Positions 47,595-64,000 of a stretch of 64,000 nt of DNA are shown here, piece by piece. The position numbers were made by a program, and so were the translations under genes. Numbering within the stretch: position 1 is the first letter of the stretch; every line of letters starts with the position of its first letter. The notes under the pieces were generated by a model, which was not told the origin of the DNA, did no database searches, and saw only the letters and a program-made list of their open reading frames with translations. This DNA comes from a bacterium (GTDB taxonomy: Bacteria > Patescibacteriota > Minisyncoccia > Phycocordibacterales > SBAW01): the NCBI GenBank assembly GCA_037139975.1, contig JBAXFJ010000001.1, forward strand, positions 171,017 to 235,016, read 5' to 3'.

Positions 47595-47604
47595 AAGAAA
47601 GTAG

Positions 47605-47993
47605 TGGAGATGGGCGGAGTTGAACCGCCGTGCAATGATGGCCTACAGAAGCTTCTACGTTGTCTATCTTGCTTAATTCCGCCCGGAGGCGATCTTTAGC
47701 ACATCGTGGGCGAAGCGAGCGAAATCACGATGCACTGCAACTCTTATGTTCGGCAACAAGCCAGAATATCTCTTGTTGCTATACGCTTGATGTATAACAC
47801 CTACACCTCGCCCTCAAGCGAGAAACTAGGGAAGTGGAGCTTAGGCGCGCGCGAACGCGAAGCCGAAGTCATTTGCCGCGAAATACGGCGATACGCTGTT
47901 TTTTGCAGGTATGGTTTCCCGATTTTTAAGAAGTTCGGGGCTTCTACAACGCGCATTCTGTAGGTACCATCATTGTCTAGGCCTGGCATCCCC
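47605..47993 (-). ncRNA. ssrA: transfer-messenger RNA (tmRNA)
   Basis: 5' end GGGGAUGCCAGGCC... pairs with the 3' end ...GGCGGUUCAACUCCGCCCAUCUCCA (T-arm GUUCAACUCC as in E. coli tmRNA; acceptor ggggatg/catctcc with one G-U; discriminator A; CCA not encoded). An internal UCGCGGCAAAUGAC resume context gives tag ORF ANDFGFAFARA* (47876..47841). smpB lies immediately upstream. Confidence 0.8.
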
Positions 47994-53690: not shown

Positions 53691-53761
53691 GACCCCGGCT
53701 CGCGGTCTCGCCTGCTGGCTCGACATCGCTACGCCTTTCTCGTCCTGCCACTGCTACGCAG

Positions 53762-53834
53762 TGGGCGCGCTAGGACTCGAACCTAGAACCGCCGAGGTAT
53801 AAGCTCGGTGCACTAACCATTGTGCTACGCGCCC
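53762..53834 (-). tRNA. tRNA-Ile, apparent anticodon UAU
   Basis: Reverse complement gggcgcg-ta-gcac-aatggtta-gtgc-a-ccgag-cttatac-ctcgg-cggtt-ctagg-ttcgagt-cctag-cgcgccc-a folds as a canonical 73-nt cloverleaf. The anticodon loop cuUAUac has U33 and A37. CCA is not encoded. Confidence 0.75.
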
Positions 53835-60957: not shown

Positions 60958-60992
60958 AATAACAGAGTTTTTTCGCGAGGGGTTGGTTTTTG

Positions 60993-61079
60993 CGGAGAGA
61001 GCGAGATTCGAACTCGCGGGCCTAATTAAAAGCCGACAGTTTAGTAAACTGTTGATTTAAACCACTCATCCATCTCTCC
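60993..61079 (-). tRNA. class-II (long variable arm, G73) tRNA, Ser-like, apparent anticodon ACU (unusual)
   Basis: Reverse complement ggagaga-tg-gat-gagtggtttaa-atc-a-acagt-ttactaa-actgt-cggcttttaattaggcccg-gcgag-ttcgaat-ctcgc-tctctcc-g. Good acceptor, T and D arms; the 5-bp anticodon stem is perfect and the loop reads uuACUaa. Confidence 0.55.
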
Positions 61080-61102: not shown

Positions 61103-62785
61103 CTACAGCATCACTCGCATAAAAGTAAAAAAAGTAGTACGGTACATAGCGTACGCTAGGGCGGAGTGCACAGTAGAGAATAGTGTACGGAGACGTGTCA
61201 GAGTGGTCGAATGTGCCTCCTTGCTAAGGAGGTAGGGCGCAAGCCCTCGTGGGTTCGAATCCCACCGTCTCCGCCAAAAAACGAAATCGGATTTTAGAGC
61301 CGAAATGGGGTCGCGCCGAAGGCGCGACACTAATGCATTCCCCCCGCCGAATTCAGAATCCAAAAGGGTTTTCCACGCTCCGCGTGGCTCAAAAAGTACG
61401 GTTCGATCTAAAATTTTAAAGTTCGAACCGACTTTTTTGAATTCCCGAAGTATTTCTTCGGGAATTCCCTCGTTTGCCAATTCCGTATTGGTAATATTGG
61501 CTTTTAGAAATTTTTCTGTAAGTTCGAACCGATTATTCGCTTTTTGTTCAAAAGATGATAATTTTTCTTTGAAAAGCTGTTTTTGGTTTACCAACTGATT
61601 TTTCGTTTCTCGATATTCTTCAAGTGATAACGAATTATCGAGATAGAGTGTCATCAGCTTTTCAATCTTTTTTTCGGTTGAAAAAATTTCATCTTTTGTA
61701 TTTTGAACAAAAAGGGTAGACGATTGGACTTCCGATTGCCGATCTTTTGAATTTTCGGCAATCATCCATTTTGTCCAATCGTCTGGCAAAGAAACTTTTT
61801 TGATTTCATTTTGAATTTGAGAAGTGATGAGCTCCTCACGAATATACGGTTGAGCACAGGGATTTTTCCGTTTGGTACATCGCAAATAGTTATGACCTTT
61901 TTGTTGTTCGGTAGTAATAAAACATCCACATTCTCCGCAATGGAAAAATCCACGATAGATGTATGGCTTAAGTCCTTTGCTATGCGGTTTAGATTTTCTC
62001 ATCATCACTTCTTGAACGGAATCAAAAAGTTTCTTTGAAATAATCGGTTCGTGCTTTCCTTCGTGGATTTCACCACCATACCGAAGCAATCCGCAAAAAA
62101 TCGGATTTTTTAACATATTATGAATATTGGAAATAGAAAGTTCTTGCTCTTTCCTTGAACGCAGTCCAAGTTCATTAACCATGTCTCTAACTTGTCGGAG
62201 TGTGTACTTGCCACTTGCGTAGGCCTCAAACGCTCTCACGATATATGGCGAGCGTTCGGGGTCTGGAACGATAACTTTCTTATCACTATCGTTTAGATAG
62301 CCCACAGGAGCGTTTTGAGGCCAAATACCATCCTTCAATTTTTGACGATGACCACGCTTAATATTCTCCGACAAATTATCCACATAATACTTGGACTGCG
62401 AAAATGCTATTGAGAGCATGAACTTTCCTTGTGGTGTTGGATCAAACCAAAAAGTTGAAAATTTCAAATCCAAAATTATTTTGGTATCAACAAGGTAAAT
62501 AATTTTACCACCGTCTACGGAATTTCTCGCAAGTCTATCGGGGTGCCACGCTAAAATTCCATTTGCCTCACCAGCTTCCATGCGGAGAAGCATTTCATTA
62601 AAGACTGGCCGACCCGGAATCTTGGCGGTTTGTTTTTCCACGAAAATATCTACAACCTCAATTTGTTCTTTAACCGCCAACTCTTTGAGTTCGGCCAGTT
62701 GATCCGAAATGCTTCTCACTTGCCGATCTTTGTCATCGGTAGACTTGCGAGTATATATAAAAAACTTTTTGGTTTGATTATTCAT
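61103..62785 (-). CDS. large serine recombinase (resolvase/integrase family); C-terminal ~95 codons are read-through of IR-L and tRNA-Ser, and the true 3' end is uncertain
   Basis: N-terminal resolvase catalytic domain IYTRKSTDDKDRQ...SISDQ (Ser nucleophile), recombinase domain and zinc-ribbon (C..C...C..C), then a coiled-coil. There is no in-frame stop until 61103, so the annotated end is an artefact or the gene is disrupted. Local AT-richness relative to its surroundings. Confidence 0.75.
   Translation of the reverse strand: MNNQTKKFFIYTRKSTDDKDRQVRSISDQLAELKELAVKEQIEVVDIFVEKQTAKIPGRPVFNEMLLRMEAGEANGILAWHPDRLARNSVDGGKIIYLVDTKIILDLKFSTFWFDPTPQGKFMLSIAFSQSKYYVDNLSENIKRGHRQKLKDGIWPQNAPVGYLNDSDKKVIVPDPERSPYIVRAFEAYASGKYTLRQVRDMVNELGLRSRKEQELSISNIHNMLKNPIFCGLLRYGGEIHEGKHEPIISKKLFDSVQEVMMRKSKPHSKGLKPYIYRGFFHCGECGCFITTEQQKGHNYLRCTKRKNPCAQPYIREELITSQIQNEIKKVSLPDDWTKWMIAENSKDRQSEVQSSTLFVQNTKDEIFSTEKKIEKLMTLYLDNSLSLEEYRETKNQLVNQKQLFKEKLSSFEQKANNRFELTEKFLKANITNTELANEGIPEEILREFKKVGSNFKILDRTVLFEPRGAWKTLLDSEFGGGNALVSRLRRDPISALKSDFVFWRRRWDSNPRGLAPYLLSKEAHSTTLTRLRTLFSTVHSALAYAMYRTTFFTFMRVML
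61189..61276 (+). tRNA. tRNA-Ser (anticodon GCU), CCA encoded
   Basis: ggagacg-tg-tcagagtggtcgaa...cctcc-ttGCTaa-ggagg, long variable arm, gtgggttcgaatcccac T-arm, cgtctcc-g-cca. Confidence 0.85.
61271..61390. repeat. IR-L: 120-bp terminal inverted repeat that starts inside the 3' end (CCGCCA) of tRNA-Ser
   Basis: A perfect reverse complement of 62951-63070; contains an internal hairpin ggggtcgcgcc-gaag-ggcgcgac. Confidence 0.85.
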
Positions 62786-62950
62786 AGTATGTTTAAAAAC
62801 CTAAAAGGGCGACCATGTTGCACCAACTTTACCTTTCAGCAAAATTGAACACAGTCGCCCGTCTAGATGCTCAAGCAAATAAAAAGCTGAAAGTGTCTAA
62901 AGTTGGTGCAATCCAATATTACCATTTTTTATTTTGTATTGGCAAACGAG

Positions 62951-63070
62951 GAGCCACGCGGAGCGTGGAAAACCCTTTTGGATTCTGAATTCGGCGGGGG
63001 GAATGCATTAGTGTCGCGCCTTCGGCGCGACCCCATTTCGGCTCTAAAATCCGATTTCGTTTTTTGGCGG
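62951..63070. repeat. IR-R: 120-bp terminal inverted repeat
   Basis: gagccacgcggagcgtggaaaaccc...ccgatttcgttttttggcgg is the exact reverse complement of IR-L. Confidence 0.85.
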
Positions 63071-63120
63071 TGTCTATTGTACAAAATTCGAACTTATTTT
63101 GAAAGCAATCCTGACTAATC

Positions 63121-63486
63121 GCACGCGCGGAGCGCGTGGTGCCTCTAAACTAAATCGTACGCTCCACGAAAGCCCCGCCACCGCCTCGCTTCACTCGGCA
63201 ACCCCAAAAAGAAAAATGTCTCTTGCTCTTTTGATTTTCGCGGGGGTGGATTTTTTCTAAAATGGAAAGGACATTTTTCTTTTTGGGGTTCTGCCCTCCA
63301 AGTATTCGGGCAGTGTGGCGGGGCTTCAATTCGGACTCGGTTTTGCAAAAACTATTTTCTGGGGAAAGGATTTTGCAAAACTTCGGCTAATGTTTTTGAA
63401 ATTCGGCGGGGTTCTGAATTCGGGTTCCCGCGCGGAGGAGGGGTCTGGGGAGGAATCCGCGCGGGCTTCTTCTGATTTTTTGGCGG
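63121..63486. repeat. degenerate, expanded third copy of the 120-bp repeat (same orientation as IR-R)
   Basis: Shares the blocks acgcggagcg(c)gtgg, ttctgaattcggcgggg and gattttttggcgg with IR-R, interrupted by insertions. Confidence 0.5.
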
Positions 63487-63492
63487 AATTAT

Positions 63493-63981
63493 TTAATAGT
63501 CGTAAAGATGTTCAATCTTTACTCCTTCAGATTCTAGCTGAACTATAATCATACTAAGAGATTTTGCGGGAGCTTGCACCGTAATCCTTTTATCTGAACT
63601 TGTCATCATATTCATCGTGAACAAAACTATTCCATTTTTTAAATCACTATTCCAACTTTGTGGTGCTACAGCGGTCAGTAAAATCTCATCATTACCCGCA
63701 AAATCAACAAATTGTATACTTTGTCGAGCAAGTACCGGCATAACATCAGTAAAACCTTGGTAATGTGGAACTGCCATAATATACGAACCATTACCCAAGT
63801 CTTTGATTTTGCGAACTCTTGGGTCTTGAAAAATACTATCGGGCACATTTTTTGCAGAAACATATATTTCTGTATCAGCTATACCGTAAACTGCGTGTGT
63901 TCCAATTCTGATAAGCAGAGCATAGCCCGTTTTTACTCCGTATTCTAAACTAAGAAAAACTTTCCGCTCAAGTTTTCGCAA
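63493..63981 (-). CDS. hypothetical protein (162 aa) in AT-rich DNA distal to the recombinase element
   Basis: ORF only; no recognisable motif. Lower GC than the core genome. Confidence 0.4.
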   Translation of the reverse strand: MRKLERKVFLSLEYGVKTGYALLIRIGTHAVYGIADTEIYVSAKNVPDSIFQDPRVRKIKDLGNGSYIMAVPHYQGFTDVMPVLARQSIQFVDFAGNDEILLTAVAPQSWNSDLKNGIVLFTMNMMTSSDKRITVQAPAKSLSMIIVQLESEGVKIEHLYDY

Positions 63982-64000
63982 AAAATGTGAACCGAAAAAA

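What the first reader, a model, noticed from the sequence alone, without database searches (positions are those of the whole stretch)
61271..63070. Large serine recombinase enclosed by perfect 120-bp inverted repeats, with the left repeat beginning inside tRNA-Ser
The sequences at 61271-61390 and 62951-63070 are exact reverse complements over 120 bp, unusually long and perfect for terminal inverted repeats. They bracket a single gene for a ~500-aa large serine recombinase. The left repeat starts with the CCGCCA 3' end of tRNA-Ser(GCU). The same six bases (as TGGCGG) end the right repeat, which resembles insertion at a tRNA 3' end with partial target duplication. The region is AT-richer than its flanks. 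The architecture (large serine recombinase, long perfect IRs, no other cargo) fits neither classic IS607-type elements (no IRs) nor small-invertase switches (invertase outside the segment). It could be an undescribed serine-recombinase IS/MITE-like family or an invertible module.
Basis: seen in the sequence. Interest (0 to 1): 0.75.

Follow-up and report, generated by a model that had tools for sequence, protein, structure and literature searches.

The report
Integrase end of a tRNA-Ser island
The repeat-flanked recombinase is real, but it is only the integrase end of a roughly 5.9-kb mobile island inserted into a serine tRNA gene; the island belongs to a very common, apparently undescribed family in candidate-phyla-radiation bacteria that keeps an intact, inverted spare copy of its own attachment site.

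Summary
Window 61271-61390 and 62951-63070 are exact reverse complements (120 nt). The left arm starts at C71 of tRNA-Ser(GCU). Between the arms lies one large serine recombinase (LSR) gene.

The interpretation needs correcting. The LSR ORF has no stop inside the element. It reads through the left arm and antisense into the tRNA (560 aa). The right arm abuts another element block, not host DNA. That 433-nt block (63063-63495) has a perfect inverted copy 3.2 kb beyond the window end, and the pair encloses three cargo genes.

The mobile unit is therefore host | e-cargo-e' | f-LSR-f' | tRNA-Ser, about 5,855 bp. The same layout recurs next to tRNA-Ser genes in more than 50 CPR assemblies, including a long complete chromosome. 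Cargo varies: restriction-modification systems, copper resistance, nucleotidyltransferases.

In a sister LSR family, an occupied/empty contig pair shows the whole double-repeat unit as one 4,194-bp insertion with a 2-nt (GG/CC) overlap. The conserved TTCGAA motif lies 5 bp further from the core in the element half-site than in the tRNA half-site, as expected for attP versus attB.

The internal e'|f junction equals an inverted copy of the predicted circle junction (attP). Why it is kept, and why arms stay identical, is unresolved.

Verdict: a new variant of a known kind.

The parts
61189..61276 (+). tRNA-Ser(GCU), the integration target. Its T-loop and acceptor 3' strand form the attB-type half-site (TTCGAA 13-18 nt from the core).
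   Evidence: ARAGORN; half-site consensus from 45 loci.
61271..61272 (.). Inferred crossover dinucleotide CC (C71-C72 of the tRNA), the attR-type junction. The element supplies G73 and CCA.
   Evidence: The outer limit of arm identity lies here in all loci. By homology with the 2-nt GG/CC overlap in the occupied/empty pair L148/L149. Inferred for this element, not shown.
61271..61390 (.). Left arm (f') of the 120-nt perfect inverted repeat. It also encodes the last ~40 in-frame codons of the recombinase ORF. It contains an invariant hairpin (CCACGC-NNN-GCGTGG) and a covarying 6-pair GC hairpin.
61103..62785 (-). Large serine recombinase ORF, 560 aa. The conserved protein is encoded by about 61391-62785. 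The tail reads through the arm and antisense into the tRNA.
   Evidence: ORF list; Pfam PF00239 + PF07508 + PF13408; Ser15 aligns with the YLRRS serine (residue 22) of SPbeta SprA; more than 7,000 homologues.
62786..62950 (-). Leader between the right arm and the ATG. It is about 145 nt longer than in most relatives (21 nt) and has a 14-nt perfect hairpin (62818-62831 / 62898-62911).
62951..63070 (.). Right arm (f) of the 120-nt inverted repeat.
63069..63070 (.). Core (GG on the + strand) of the internal junction e'|f. In sequence this junction is an inverted copy of the predicted circle junction (attP).
   Evidence: The attP equivalence follows from the repeat geometry.
63063..63495 (.). Block e' (433 nt, non-coding, hairpin-rich). 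Its core-proximal end carries the conserved attP-type half-site (TTCGAA 18-23 nt from the core). A perfect inverted copy (e) lies beyond the window at contig locus L081 5653-6085.
   Evidence: I1: 433 nt, 100%.
63496..64000 (.). Start of the cargo segment: the 3' part of a 371-aa gene on the minus strand. The cargo continues beyond the window with a 143-aa gene and a FAD_binding_4/ALO oxidase. The element ends at about window-equivalent position 67125.

Best explanation
The finding is the integrase module of a site-specific integrative element, a small genomic island, inserted into the 3' end of tRNA-Ser(GCU). The complete element is about 5,855 bp. It runs from window 61271 to about 3.1 kb beyond the window end.

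Its layout is: tRNA-Ser | f' - recombinase - f | e' - cargo - e | former tRNA trailer. Here f/f' are the 120-nt arms of the finding and e/e' are a second, 433-nt perfect inverted pair around three cargo genes.

The large serine recombinase is proposed to have joined an attP on a circular form to attB. In this model, attP is the outer end of f' joined to the outer end of e. attB is the T-arm and acceptor end of tRNA-Ser plus its trailer. The crossover is at a 2-bp core (CC, tRNA positions 71-72), and the element restores G73-CCA.

Because f = rc(f') and e = rc(e'), the internal junction e'|f is a full inverted copy of that attP and stays intact after integration. On a circle, the recombinase gene and the cargo would be two unique segments separated by two inverted copies of a 320-550-nt repeat, each with the crossover core in its middle. 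This is the topology of the yeast 2-micron plasmid.

Shown directly: the repeats; the recombinase domains and catalytic serine; the conserved layout in more than 50 assemblies; foreign base composition; variable cargo; and, in a sister family, a precise one-piece insertion with a 2-nt overlap.

Inferred: the exact crossover dinucleotide here; the circular intermediate; and that the spare attP is active. One polymorphism (L167 versus L172) breaks exactly at that core.

The arms evolve in concert, most simply by gene conversion, but the mechanism is not established.
For: (1) The repeat and the gene are confirmed.

(2) The contig beyond the window (L081) shows a chain of abutting perfect repeats that overlap by 4-10 nt at a shared ..GCGG.. 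core. These include e/e' (433 nt, 100%) around three genes.

(3) Of 51 anchored arm pairs in GTDB genomes, 40 of the 50 with enough flank abut a tRNA-Ser gene (GCT 19, GGA 8, TGA 7, CGA 6) and one abuts tRNA-Asp. The recombinase is always convergent with the tRNA.

(4) All 5 loci fetched with 10-kb flanks have the second inverted pair around cargo: L081, L082 (a complete chromosome), L083, L085 and L086. So do about 12 loci with 4-kb flanks. Cargo includes DpnII-, HpaII- and EcoRI-type restriction-modification systems, copper resistance and nucleotidyltransferases.

(5) In about 17 of the 18 distal junctions examined, the outer end of the distal e arm abuts sequence that looks like an original tRNA trailer (CCA or CA, then A-rich sequence, often a host terminator). 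One of the 18 abuts another element's f arm.

(6) L148 versus L149 have flanks 99.9% identical. L148 carries a 4,194-bp insertion equal to e-cargo-e'-f-LSR-f', with 2-nt overlaps (GG/CC) at attL, the internal junction and attR. Its LSR is 42% identical to ours and belongs to the family of Rec2, which sits on the same contig as the window.

(7) TTCGAA lies at offsets 14-19 from the core in the tRNA half-site and 19-24 in the e half-site. This matches the 5-bp shift of the zinc-ribbon-domain motif between attB and attP in serine integrases (PMC3783163).

(8) Most ComF-linked tRNA-Ser(GCT) sites in related metagenome contigs are empty, and some are occupied.

(9) The element is 37.7% GC against 52.2% for the host. 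Recombinases are 71-97% identical across many CPR classes.

(10) L172 and L167 are 100% identical from the CC core through the recombinase and into the right flank, but diverge exactly at the core on the left: a tRNA-Ser(CGA) 3' end versus e'.
Against: No empty site was found for this element or for its own recombinase family. The one-piece insertion is shown only for a 42%-identical sister family.

The outermost ~35 nt of the f arm should be one attP half-site, yet it is the most variable part of the arm between elements.

If both attP copies on a circle were equivalent, two integrated isomers would be expected. Only one is seen, with the recombinase convergent with the tRNA.

No recombination directionality factor was looked for, so excision is unexplained. 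Circular forms cannot be recognised by junction sequence, because the circle junction equals the internal junction. Reads were not available.
Confidence: 0.78

Rival explanations
1. Invertible module. The recombinase flips its own 1.8-kb segment, and perhaps the cargo segment, between the inverted cores. This would act as a switch, for example changing what drives the recombinase or the cargo, or changing the recombinase C-terminal tail. It could coexist with the integration model.
For: The cores that flank each segment are in inverted orientation (CC and GG on one strand, by homology). This is the geometry for inversion by a serine recombinase. The arms are perfectly identical (31 of 51 pairs at 100%). 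The ORF runs out of the segment, so its tail would change on inversion. One of eight assemblies from one site (L171) joins the e' arm to the opposite end of the cargo. Hin lies inside its own invertible segment (my own knowledge).
Against: In more than 50 independent assemblies the recombinase has one orientation, convergent with the tRNA, and cargo genes are mostly opposite to it. The L171 join spans a repeat of at least 212 nt, longer than short reads, and may be an assembler mis-join. Canonical large serine recombinases do not recombine attP with attL or attR (PMC3783163 abstract). Crossover at a fixed core would not homogenise the arms.
Confidence: 0.15
2. One reading: the recombinase plus its two 120-bp arms is a self-sufficient IS-like element that moves on its own. 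In this view the neighbouring e' block and cargo are separate passengers.
For: The bare module sits between two tRNA-Ser 3' ends in L036, L052 and L172. e' and f variants combine incongruently between loci. L167 and L172 differ exactly at the core between e' and f.
Against: The inverted cores (CC versus GG) allow inversion but not excision by conservative 2-bp exchange (by homology). All 51 arm pairs that were anchored by searching for the e'-end motif are necessarily preceded by that ~55-nt e' end, so this set is partly circular; the three bare modules (L036, L052, L172) are the known exceptions. The only occupied/empty pair shows the whole double-repeat unit as the insertion. L036 and L052 have chimeric arms (outer 40 nt differ, inner 80 nt identical). 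That pattern fits homologous recombination between two elements at convergent tRNAs. The apparent e'/f incongruence is largely a hypervariable ~35-nt stretch, not a module swap.
Confidence: 0.08
3. Assembly artefact: a palindromic mis-join near a contig end.
For: The island lies within 22 kb of the contig end. Many related contigs break at the arms. The Logan contig stops 30 nt into the arm.
Against: The same architecture appears in more than 50 assemblies made with different assemblers, including records titled as complete chromosomes (OY969413.1, OZ246398.1). Contig breaks at the arms are what repeats longer than k would produce.
Confidence: 0.01

Closest known systems
Serine-integrase (large serine recombinase) integrative elements and prophages, e.g. 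A118/LI, Bxb1, phiC31, SPbeta SprA
   Same: Same domain set and the same catalytic-serine motif. A 2-bp crossover is seen in the sister family. The distal half-site motif is shifted 5 bp between the element and host sites, as for attP versus attB.
   Different: Only distant in sequence (best PDB E about 5e-7), and none were found in IMG/VR. The target is the 3' end of tRNA-Ser. The element carries a second, intact, inverted copy of its attP region as long perfect repeats around both the integrase gene and the cargo. The integrase ORF has no stop of its own inside the element.
Tycheposons and other tRNA-proximal cargo islands (Prochlorococcus; bioRxiv 10.1101/2020.12.28.424599)
   Same: Small cargo-carrying integrative elements stacked next to tRNA genes, including tRNA-Ser, in streamlined genomes. 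A minority use large serine recombinases. Tandem arrays are seen here as well (L081; L167).
   Different: 910 of 937 of those elements use tyrosine recombinases, and many carry replication genes. No double inverted-repeat architecture is described there.
Staphylococcal/enterococcal cassette chromosomes (SCC; CcrAB/CcrC large serine recombinases)
   Same: Recombinase-driven cargo islands at the 3' end of one conserved housekeeping gene. They have terminal inverted repeats and tandem accretion (my own knowledge; related papers listed).
   Different: The target is rlmH, not a tRNA. The inverted repeats are short and imperfect, and there is no internal copy of the attachment site.
Yeast 2-micron plasmid / FLP-FRT (topological analogy only)
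   Same: On a circle, two unique segments (one encoding the recombinase) would be separated by two long perfect inverted repeats, each with the recombination site inside (my own knowledge; geometry).
   Different: FLP is a tyrosine recombinase of a eukaryotic plasmid. Flipping there serves copy-number amplification. Neither replication genes nor flipping is shown here.
[quoted passage not shown]
   Same: Restriction-modification units bracketed by long inverted repeats were reported as putative mobile forms. Several cargo segments here are restriction-modification systems between e/e' arms.
   Different: That paper does not mention serine recombinases (0 occurrences).
Hin/Gin/Cin small serine invertase switches
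   Same: A serine recombinase gene can lie inside a segment bounded by inverted sites whose inner halves form the repeat (Hin; my own knowledge).
   Different: Those enzymes are about 190 aa with a C-terminal HTH, use 26-bp sites and need an enhancer plus Fis. Here the enzyme is a ~465-aa large serine recombinase, the arms are 120 nt, and the orientation is fixed in assemblies.

Membership tests
Large serine recombinase (LSR) family | N-terminal resolvase-type catalytic domain with the serine nucleophile and conserved arginines | tested here: met
   PF00239 covers residues 9-153, E = 1.5e-18. The Y-T-R-K-S15 motif aligns with Y-L-R-R-S22 of SPbeta SprA, and RLAR aligns with RLSR. S15, R13, R84 and R87 are invariant in 19 homologues.
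Large serine recombinase (LSR) family | C-terminal recombinase domain plus zinc-ribbon domain | tested here: met
   PF07508 covers residues 176-261, E = 4e-16. PF13408 covers residues 277-328, E = 5e-7. Both score above their curated cut-offs.
Large serine recombinase (LSR) family | Coiled-coil motif inserted in the zinc-ribbon domain | not tested
   Residues ~340-440 align with the A118 integrase C-terminal region. No coiled-coil or structure prediction was run.
Serine-integrase integrative element (attP x attB) | Discrete insertion relative to an otherwise identical empty site, with a 2-bp shared central dinucleotide | tested here: inconclusive
   Met for the sister family: L148 versus L149, a 4,194-bp insertion with 2-nt overlaps. 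No empty site was found for this element or its own family; related tRNA-Ser(GCT) sites are variably occupied.
Serine-integrase integrative element (attP x attB) | Half-site distal motif about 5 bp closer to the centre in attB than in attP | tested here: met
   TTCGAA lies at offsets 14-19 in the tRNA half and 19-24 in the e half. The rule comes from PMC3783163. This holds for one half of each site only; the other halves (f and trailer) show no clear motif.
Serine-integrase integrative element (attP x attB) | Recombination directionality factor for excision | not tested
   No candidate was sought. The cargo is heterogeneous.
IS607 family (serine transposase) | Small serine recombinase with an N-terminal MerR-type HTH and a C-terminal catalytic domain, no terminal inverted repeats, often with tnpB | tested here: not met
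   The catalytic domain is N-terminal and is followed by Recombinase and Zn-ribbon domains. The arms are 120 nt. There is no tnpB in the element.
Hin/Gin-type invertase switch | Recombinase of about 190 aa with a C-terminal HTH; both orientations present in a population | tested here: not met
   Size and domains do not fit. A single orientation is seen in more than 50 assemblies. Within-population heterogeneity cannot be tested without reads.
Tn4451/Tn5397-type LSR transposons (TnpX/TndX) | The element excises as a circle by recombination between directly oriented 2-bp cores at its two ends | tested here: inconclusive
   For the 1.8-kb module the cores are inverted (CC/GG), so the feature is not met. 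For the whole unit they are direct (GG...GG in L148), which is compatible. No circle was observed.
Integron | IntI tyrosine recombinase, attI site, cassettes ending in folded attC sites | tested here: not met
   The enzyme is a serine recombinase. The cargo is bracketed by long inverted repeats rather than followed by attC.

The most novel reading that the evidence does not exclude
The intact inverted attP copy (the e'|f junction) may be a working part of the element rather than a relic. It would give an integrase that can only perform attP x attB a way to rearrange after integration without a directionality factor.

Recombination of the internal attP with a second tRNA-Ser 3' end nearby would release the cargo segment as a circle. 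Convergent tRNA-Ser genes or inverted 3'-end fragments are common downstream of these tRNAs. The reaction would leave the recombinase between two tRNA ends, as seen in L172, L036 and L052. The locus would then be an integron-like capture-and-release platform built on a serine recombinase.

A related reading concerns single-stranded DNA taken up by transformation. The two inverted pairs would let such a strand fold so that the e and f stems stack into a double-stranded attP.
Probability: 0.15. Interest if true: 0.85.

Novelty: new variant of a known kind. Interest (0 to 1): 0.62.

Why it matters
CPR/Patescibacteria have tiny genomes, and little is known about how they exchange genes. This family appears to be one of their commonest mobile elements: more than 7,000 related recombinases, many 71-97% identical across classes. 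It carries restriction-modification, metal-resistance and other accessory genes into serine tRNA genes.

Its design is unusual for a serine-integrase element. Long perfect inverted repeats duplicate the attachment site, the arms evolve in concert, and the integrase gene borrows its stop codon from the flank. Understanding this design could reveal a directionality-factor-independent way of moving or shuffling cargo.

There are practical consequences too. The repeats routinely break short-read assemblies at tRNA-Ser loci in CPR genomes. The recombinases, with a defined tRNA-derived attB, are candidates for genome-engineering tools.

Tried and rejected
1. Palindromic CG central dinucleotide (no site polarity, so any two sites could invert or delete). 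I entertained this. I dropped it when the L148/L149 pair showed a non-palindromic GG/CC overlap.

2. Two independent modules, each with a palindromic attachment site on its own circle. This is rejected as the main model for the same reason: the inverted cores cannot support excision.

3. L036 and L052 as proof that the internal attP is active. This is weakened because their arms are chimeric (outer 40 nt differ), which fits homologous recombination between two elements. L172 is cleaner.

4. Module swapping at the core inferred from e'/f incongruence. The alignment shows it is mostly a hypervariable ~35-nt stretch.

5. A phage origin. No relative was found in IMG/VR.

6. A known RNA family in the arms or in e'. 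Nothing credible appeared in Rfam.

7. Protein-coding constraint across the whole arm. Only the inner 60 nt shows weak third-position excess; the outer 60 nt shows none.

8. An alternative arrangement of this very locus in another assembly. The only other contig (Logan) stops 30 nt into the arm.

9. Literature. Eight full-text searches found no description of this family.

10. The promoter scan gave only consensus-level hits not clearly above the shuffled expectation.
Full report
**1. The observation**

Window 61271-61390 and 62951-63070 are exact reverse complements over 120 nt, with 1,560 nt between them. No further copy exists elsewhere in the 64-kb window.

ARAGORN places tRNA-Ser(GCU) at 61189-61276 on the + strand. 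The left arm therefore begins with the last two acceptor-stem bases (C71, C72), the discriminator G73 and the encoded CCA.

One gene lies between the arms. It has Resolvase, Recombinase and zinc-ribbon domains, all above Pfam cut-offs. Its Ser15 aligns with the YLRRS serine (residue 22) of SPbeta SprA. The recombinase body is 37.7% GC, against 52.2% for the rest of the window.

The ORF differs from the description. It runs from 62785 down to 61103 (560 aa). It has no stop inside the element, crosses the left arm and ends antisense inside the tRNA. In 19 homologues the same holds: they share ...FEPRGAWKTLLDS...FWR and then read 'DSNPR', which is the antisense of a tRNA T-loop, before diverging.

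**2. The repeat is a family feature, not a one-off**

A protein search found more than 7,000 relatives. The best 120 are 74-100% identical, have very variable C-terminal lengths, and often sit on contigs of about 2 kb.

A scan of one genome per GTDB species returned 80 loci. By record title nearly all are from Patescibacteria/CPR assemblies. Of 51 arm pairs that could be anchored without gaps, 31 are 100% identical and 11 more are at least 97.5% identical. Distinct arms from different loci average only 73% identity.

Forty of the 50 pairs with enough flank abut a tRNA-Ser gene (GCT 19, GGA 8, TGA 7, CGA 6) and one abuts tRNA-Asp. The recombinase is always convergent with the tRNA. The architecture occurs in records titled as complete chromosomes (OY969413.1, OZ246398.1) and in assemblies from several different assemblers. 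An artefact is therefore excluded. Contig breaks at the arms, including the Logan contig that stops 30 nt into the arm, are what a repeat longer than k produces.

**3. The arms**

- The inner 25 nt (GAGCCACGCGGAGCGTGGAAAACCC, a 6-bp hairpin) is almost invariant.
- A second GC hairpin has three covarying pairs and none of its six pairs broken in 32 sequences.
- The outer ~35 nt next to the core is the most variable part between elements, yet it is mirrored in both arms of each element.
- Codon periodicity is weak in the inner 60 nt and absent in the outer 60 nt. Most of the arm-encoded tail is therefore probably not constrained as protein.

Identity between arms across an unconstrained stretch means concerted evolution rather than selection. 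Mosaic arm pairs exist (L002, L012, L033).

**4. What lies outside the arms**

The sequence just outside the upstream arm is itself conserved in the loci anchored on it. Its consensus is ...GATTTTGTCCGAAATACATTCGAACTTCGTCCAATACACA-CC-GCCAAAA.... The repeat does not therefore end at host DNA on that side.

Fetching the same contig beyond the window (L081; window position = 72786 minus L081 position) shows a chain of abutting perfect repeats. In order it reads:

- a-Rec1-a', then d;
- b-(PG_binding gene)-b';
- c-Rec2-c', then d again;
- e-(three genes)-e';
- f-Rec3-f', then tRNA-Ser.

Rec3 is the recombinase of the finding. Block e' is window 63063-63495 (433 nt), and its perfect inverted twin e lies 3.2 kb further on. 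Neighbouring blocks overlap by 4-10 nt at a common ..GCGG.. core.

The same second pair appears in several other places. About 12 of 31 loci with 4-kb flanks have 100-430-nt arms 1.5-2.6 kb apart that end exactly where the recombinase arm starts. All five loci examined with 10-kb flanks have it. So does L167, which carries two such elements at neighbouring tRNA(-like) genes.

Cargo differs from locus to locus. It includes DpnII-, HpaII- and EcoRI-type restriction-modification systems, a type I/IIG system, a CsoR/CopA copper module, nucleotidyltransferases, and membrane or secreted proteins.

In about 17 of the 18 distal junctions examined, the outer end of the distal e arm abuts sequence that looks like a displaced tRNA trailer. 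This is CCA or CA, then A-rich sequence, often followed by a host terminator hairpin. One of the 18 abuts another element's f arm.

**5. Direct evidence that the double-repeat unit is one insertion**

A metagenome scan with the ComF-like gene that flanks two of the islands returned 80 loci. In most of them tRNA-Ser(GCT) has no recombinase nearby. In a few, the f arm follows the tRNA directly.

Two Hainich groundwater contigs, L148 and L149, are 99.9% identical on both sides of a 4,194-bp insertion in L148. The insertion consists of:

- e (178 nt), cargo, e';
- f (130 nt), LSR, f'.

Both pairs are 100% identical. There are 2-nt overlaps at the left junction, the internal junction and the right junction:

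- attB: ..GAGCCAA[GG]AGGGGGAGGGATTCGAACC..
- attL: ..GAGCCAA[GG]GGTCATTATATCC..
- internal: ..GGATATAATGACC[CC]GCAAAAAGAAAC..
- attR: ..TTTCTTTTTGC[GG]AGGGGGAGAGATTCGAACC..

A 2-bp overlap is the signature of serine recombinases. This LSR is 42% identical to ours and belongs to the family of Rec2 on the window's own contig. The architecture is thus shared by two distinct LSR clades.

Aligning attR of L148 with our junction (..TTTTTTGGC[GG]AGACGGTGGGATTCGAACC..) places our crossover at C71-C72 of the tRNA, window 61271-61272. It places the internal core at 63069-63070. This placement is by homology, not direct observation.

**6. Half-sites**

I read each half-site outward from the core. The tRNA half has TTCGAA (the T-loop) at offsets 14-19. 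The conserved e half has TTCGAA at 19-24.

In serine integrases, the zinc-ribbon-domain motif of attB lies 5 bp closer to the central dinucleotide than in attP (Rutherford et al. 2013, PMC3783163). The e end therefore behaves as an attP-type mimic of the tRNA T-arm, and the tRNA behaves as the attB-type half. The other two halves (the f outer end and the trailer) share only CG-C(C)A-A-rich sequence and give no clear motif. This is a weakness of the model.

**7. Consequence of the geometry**

Because f = rc(f') and e = rc(e'), the junction formed on circularisation (f'[GG]e) is the reverse complement of the internal junction (e'[CC]f) over 320-550 nt. The integrated element therefore keeps a complete inverted copy of its attP.

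On a circle, the recombinase gene and the cargo would be two unique segments between two inverted repeats, each holding the crossover core. This is the topology of the 2-micron plasmid (my own knowledge). It also means circles cannot be recognised from junction sequences alone.

The cores on either side of the recombinase, and on either side of the cargo, are inverted relative to each other. A serine recombinase could invert either segment but could not excise it. The cores at the two ends of the whole unit are direct, so the whole unit can in principle excise.

**8. Is the internal site used?**

L172 and L167 carry the same recombinase. They are 100% identical over 1,705 nt, from the CC core through the gene and 66 nt into the right-hand tRNA-like flank. 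To the left of the CC, L167 has e' whereas L172 has the 3' end of a tRNA-Ser(CGA) gene.

This is the product expected if the internal attP recombined with a second, convergent tRNA-Ser attB and deleted the cargo. Convergent tRNA-Ser genes or inverted 3'-end fragments are common downstream of tRNA-Ser(GCT).

L036 and L052 look similar, but their arms are chimeric, so homologous recombination between two elements explains them as well. I regard activity of the internal site as plausible but unproven.

**9. Inversion**

The geometry allows inversion, and the identical arms invite the idea. However, every assembly shows the recombinase convergent with the tRNA. The single discordant join (L171, 32 nt beyond an arm of at least 212 nt) may be an assembler error. 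Reads are needed to settle this.

**10. What is known**

Eight full-text searches found no description of this family.

The closest kinds are these:

- Serine-integrase elements: same chemistry and att logic.
- SCC-type cassette chromosomes: an LSR-driven island at the 3' end of one housekeeping gene.
- Tycheposons: cargo islands stacked at tRNA genes in streamlined genomes, mostly using tyrosine recombinases.
- Restriction-modification genes between long inverted repeats, an older observation (PMC2853133).

It is not an IS607 element, a Hin-type switch or an integron (see the membership rows).

**11. Verdict**

It is wrong about the unit and about the 'target duplication'.

The best-supported reading is an LSR-driven integrative island at tRNA-Ser(GCU), of which the finding is the integrase end.

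Several features are unexplained and make it more than a routine integrase:

- the conserved double inverted repeat, which preserves an intact attP;
- the concerted evolution of the arms;
- the hypervariable stretch next to the core;
- the structured e' block;
- the stop-less integrase ORF.

Noticed in passing
window 60992-61079 (-): A tRNA-Ser with anticodon ACU (anticodon loop TT-ACT-AA read directly from the sequence) sits divergently next to tRNA-Ser(GCU). The same pair occurs in L011, L019, L036 and L071. An A34 serine tRNA is unusual for bacteria.
   Followed up: partly
window 53761-53834 and 47604-47993: tRNA-Ile(UAU), and a tmRNA with tag peptide AKNSVSPYFAANDFGFAFARA.
   Followed up: no
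window 62786-62950: The leader between the right arm and the ATG is about 145 nt longer than in most relatives (21 nt). It carries a 14-nt perfect hairpin (62818-62831 / 62898-62911). It is shared with the closest relatives (L001-L004) and has no Rfam match.
   Followed up: partly
window 63063-63495 (block e'), e.g. 63436-63455: The non-coding block is built of GC-rich hairpins. The 20-nt loop TTCCTCCCCAGACCCCTCCT is identical in 11 loci, while the enclosing stems differ between groups of elements. This suggests a structured RNA or DNA element of unknown role (its complement reads AGGAGGGGTCTGGGGAGGAA).
   Followed up: partly
L081 1-5662 (same contig, beyond the window end): Two more repeat-flanked large serine recombinases lie here. 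Rec1 is a 77-87% nt paralogue and Rec2 belongs to a distant family. There is also a PG_binding_1 gene between 235-nt perfect inverted repeats. A 191-nt block (d) is present twice in direct orientation; it begins with a 19-nt copy of the tRNA-Ser 3' end. Together these form a tandem array of at least three elements running to the contig end.
   Followed up: partly
L149 9700-9760; also L110, L118, L142, L156, L160, L161, L163: Downstream of tRNA-Ser(GCT), many genomes carry an inverted copy of a tRNA-Ser 3' end (21 nt in L149, 19 nt after the tRNA). In L148 the element is inserted at this fragment, not at the tRNA itself.
   Followed up: partly
L167 4158-4290 (-): A ~125-nt tRNA-like sequence has a tRNA-Ser-type 3' end but is not called by ARAGORN. 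It serves as the insertion site of one element. A second element sits at the neighbouring tRNA-Ser(CGA).
   Followed up: no
L157 10734-10848: A ~110-nt 'solo' relic of an e-type block lies between tRNA-Ser(GCT) and the next host gene, bounded by the same cores. It is probably a decayed or deleted element.
   Followed up: no
L171 1-32 versus L167 116-147: One of eight assemblies from the same site joins the e' arm to the opposite end of the cargo segment. This is either cargo inversion in part of the population or an assembler mis-join across a repeat of at least 212 nt.
   Followed up: partly
record titles of L001, L021, L022, L025, L035, L055, L061, L065, L066: Contigs that carry this CPR-typical element are filed under Planctomycetales, Gammaproteobacteria, Actinomycetota or Bdellovibrionales bins. 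They are probably mis-binned or mislabelled.
   Followed up: no
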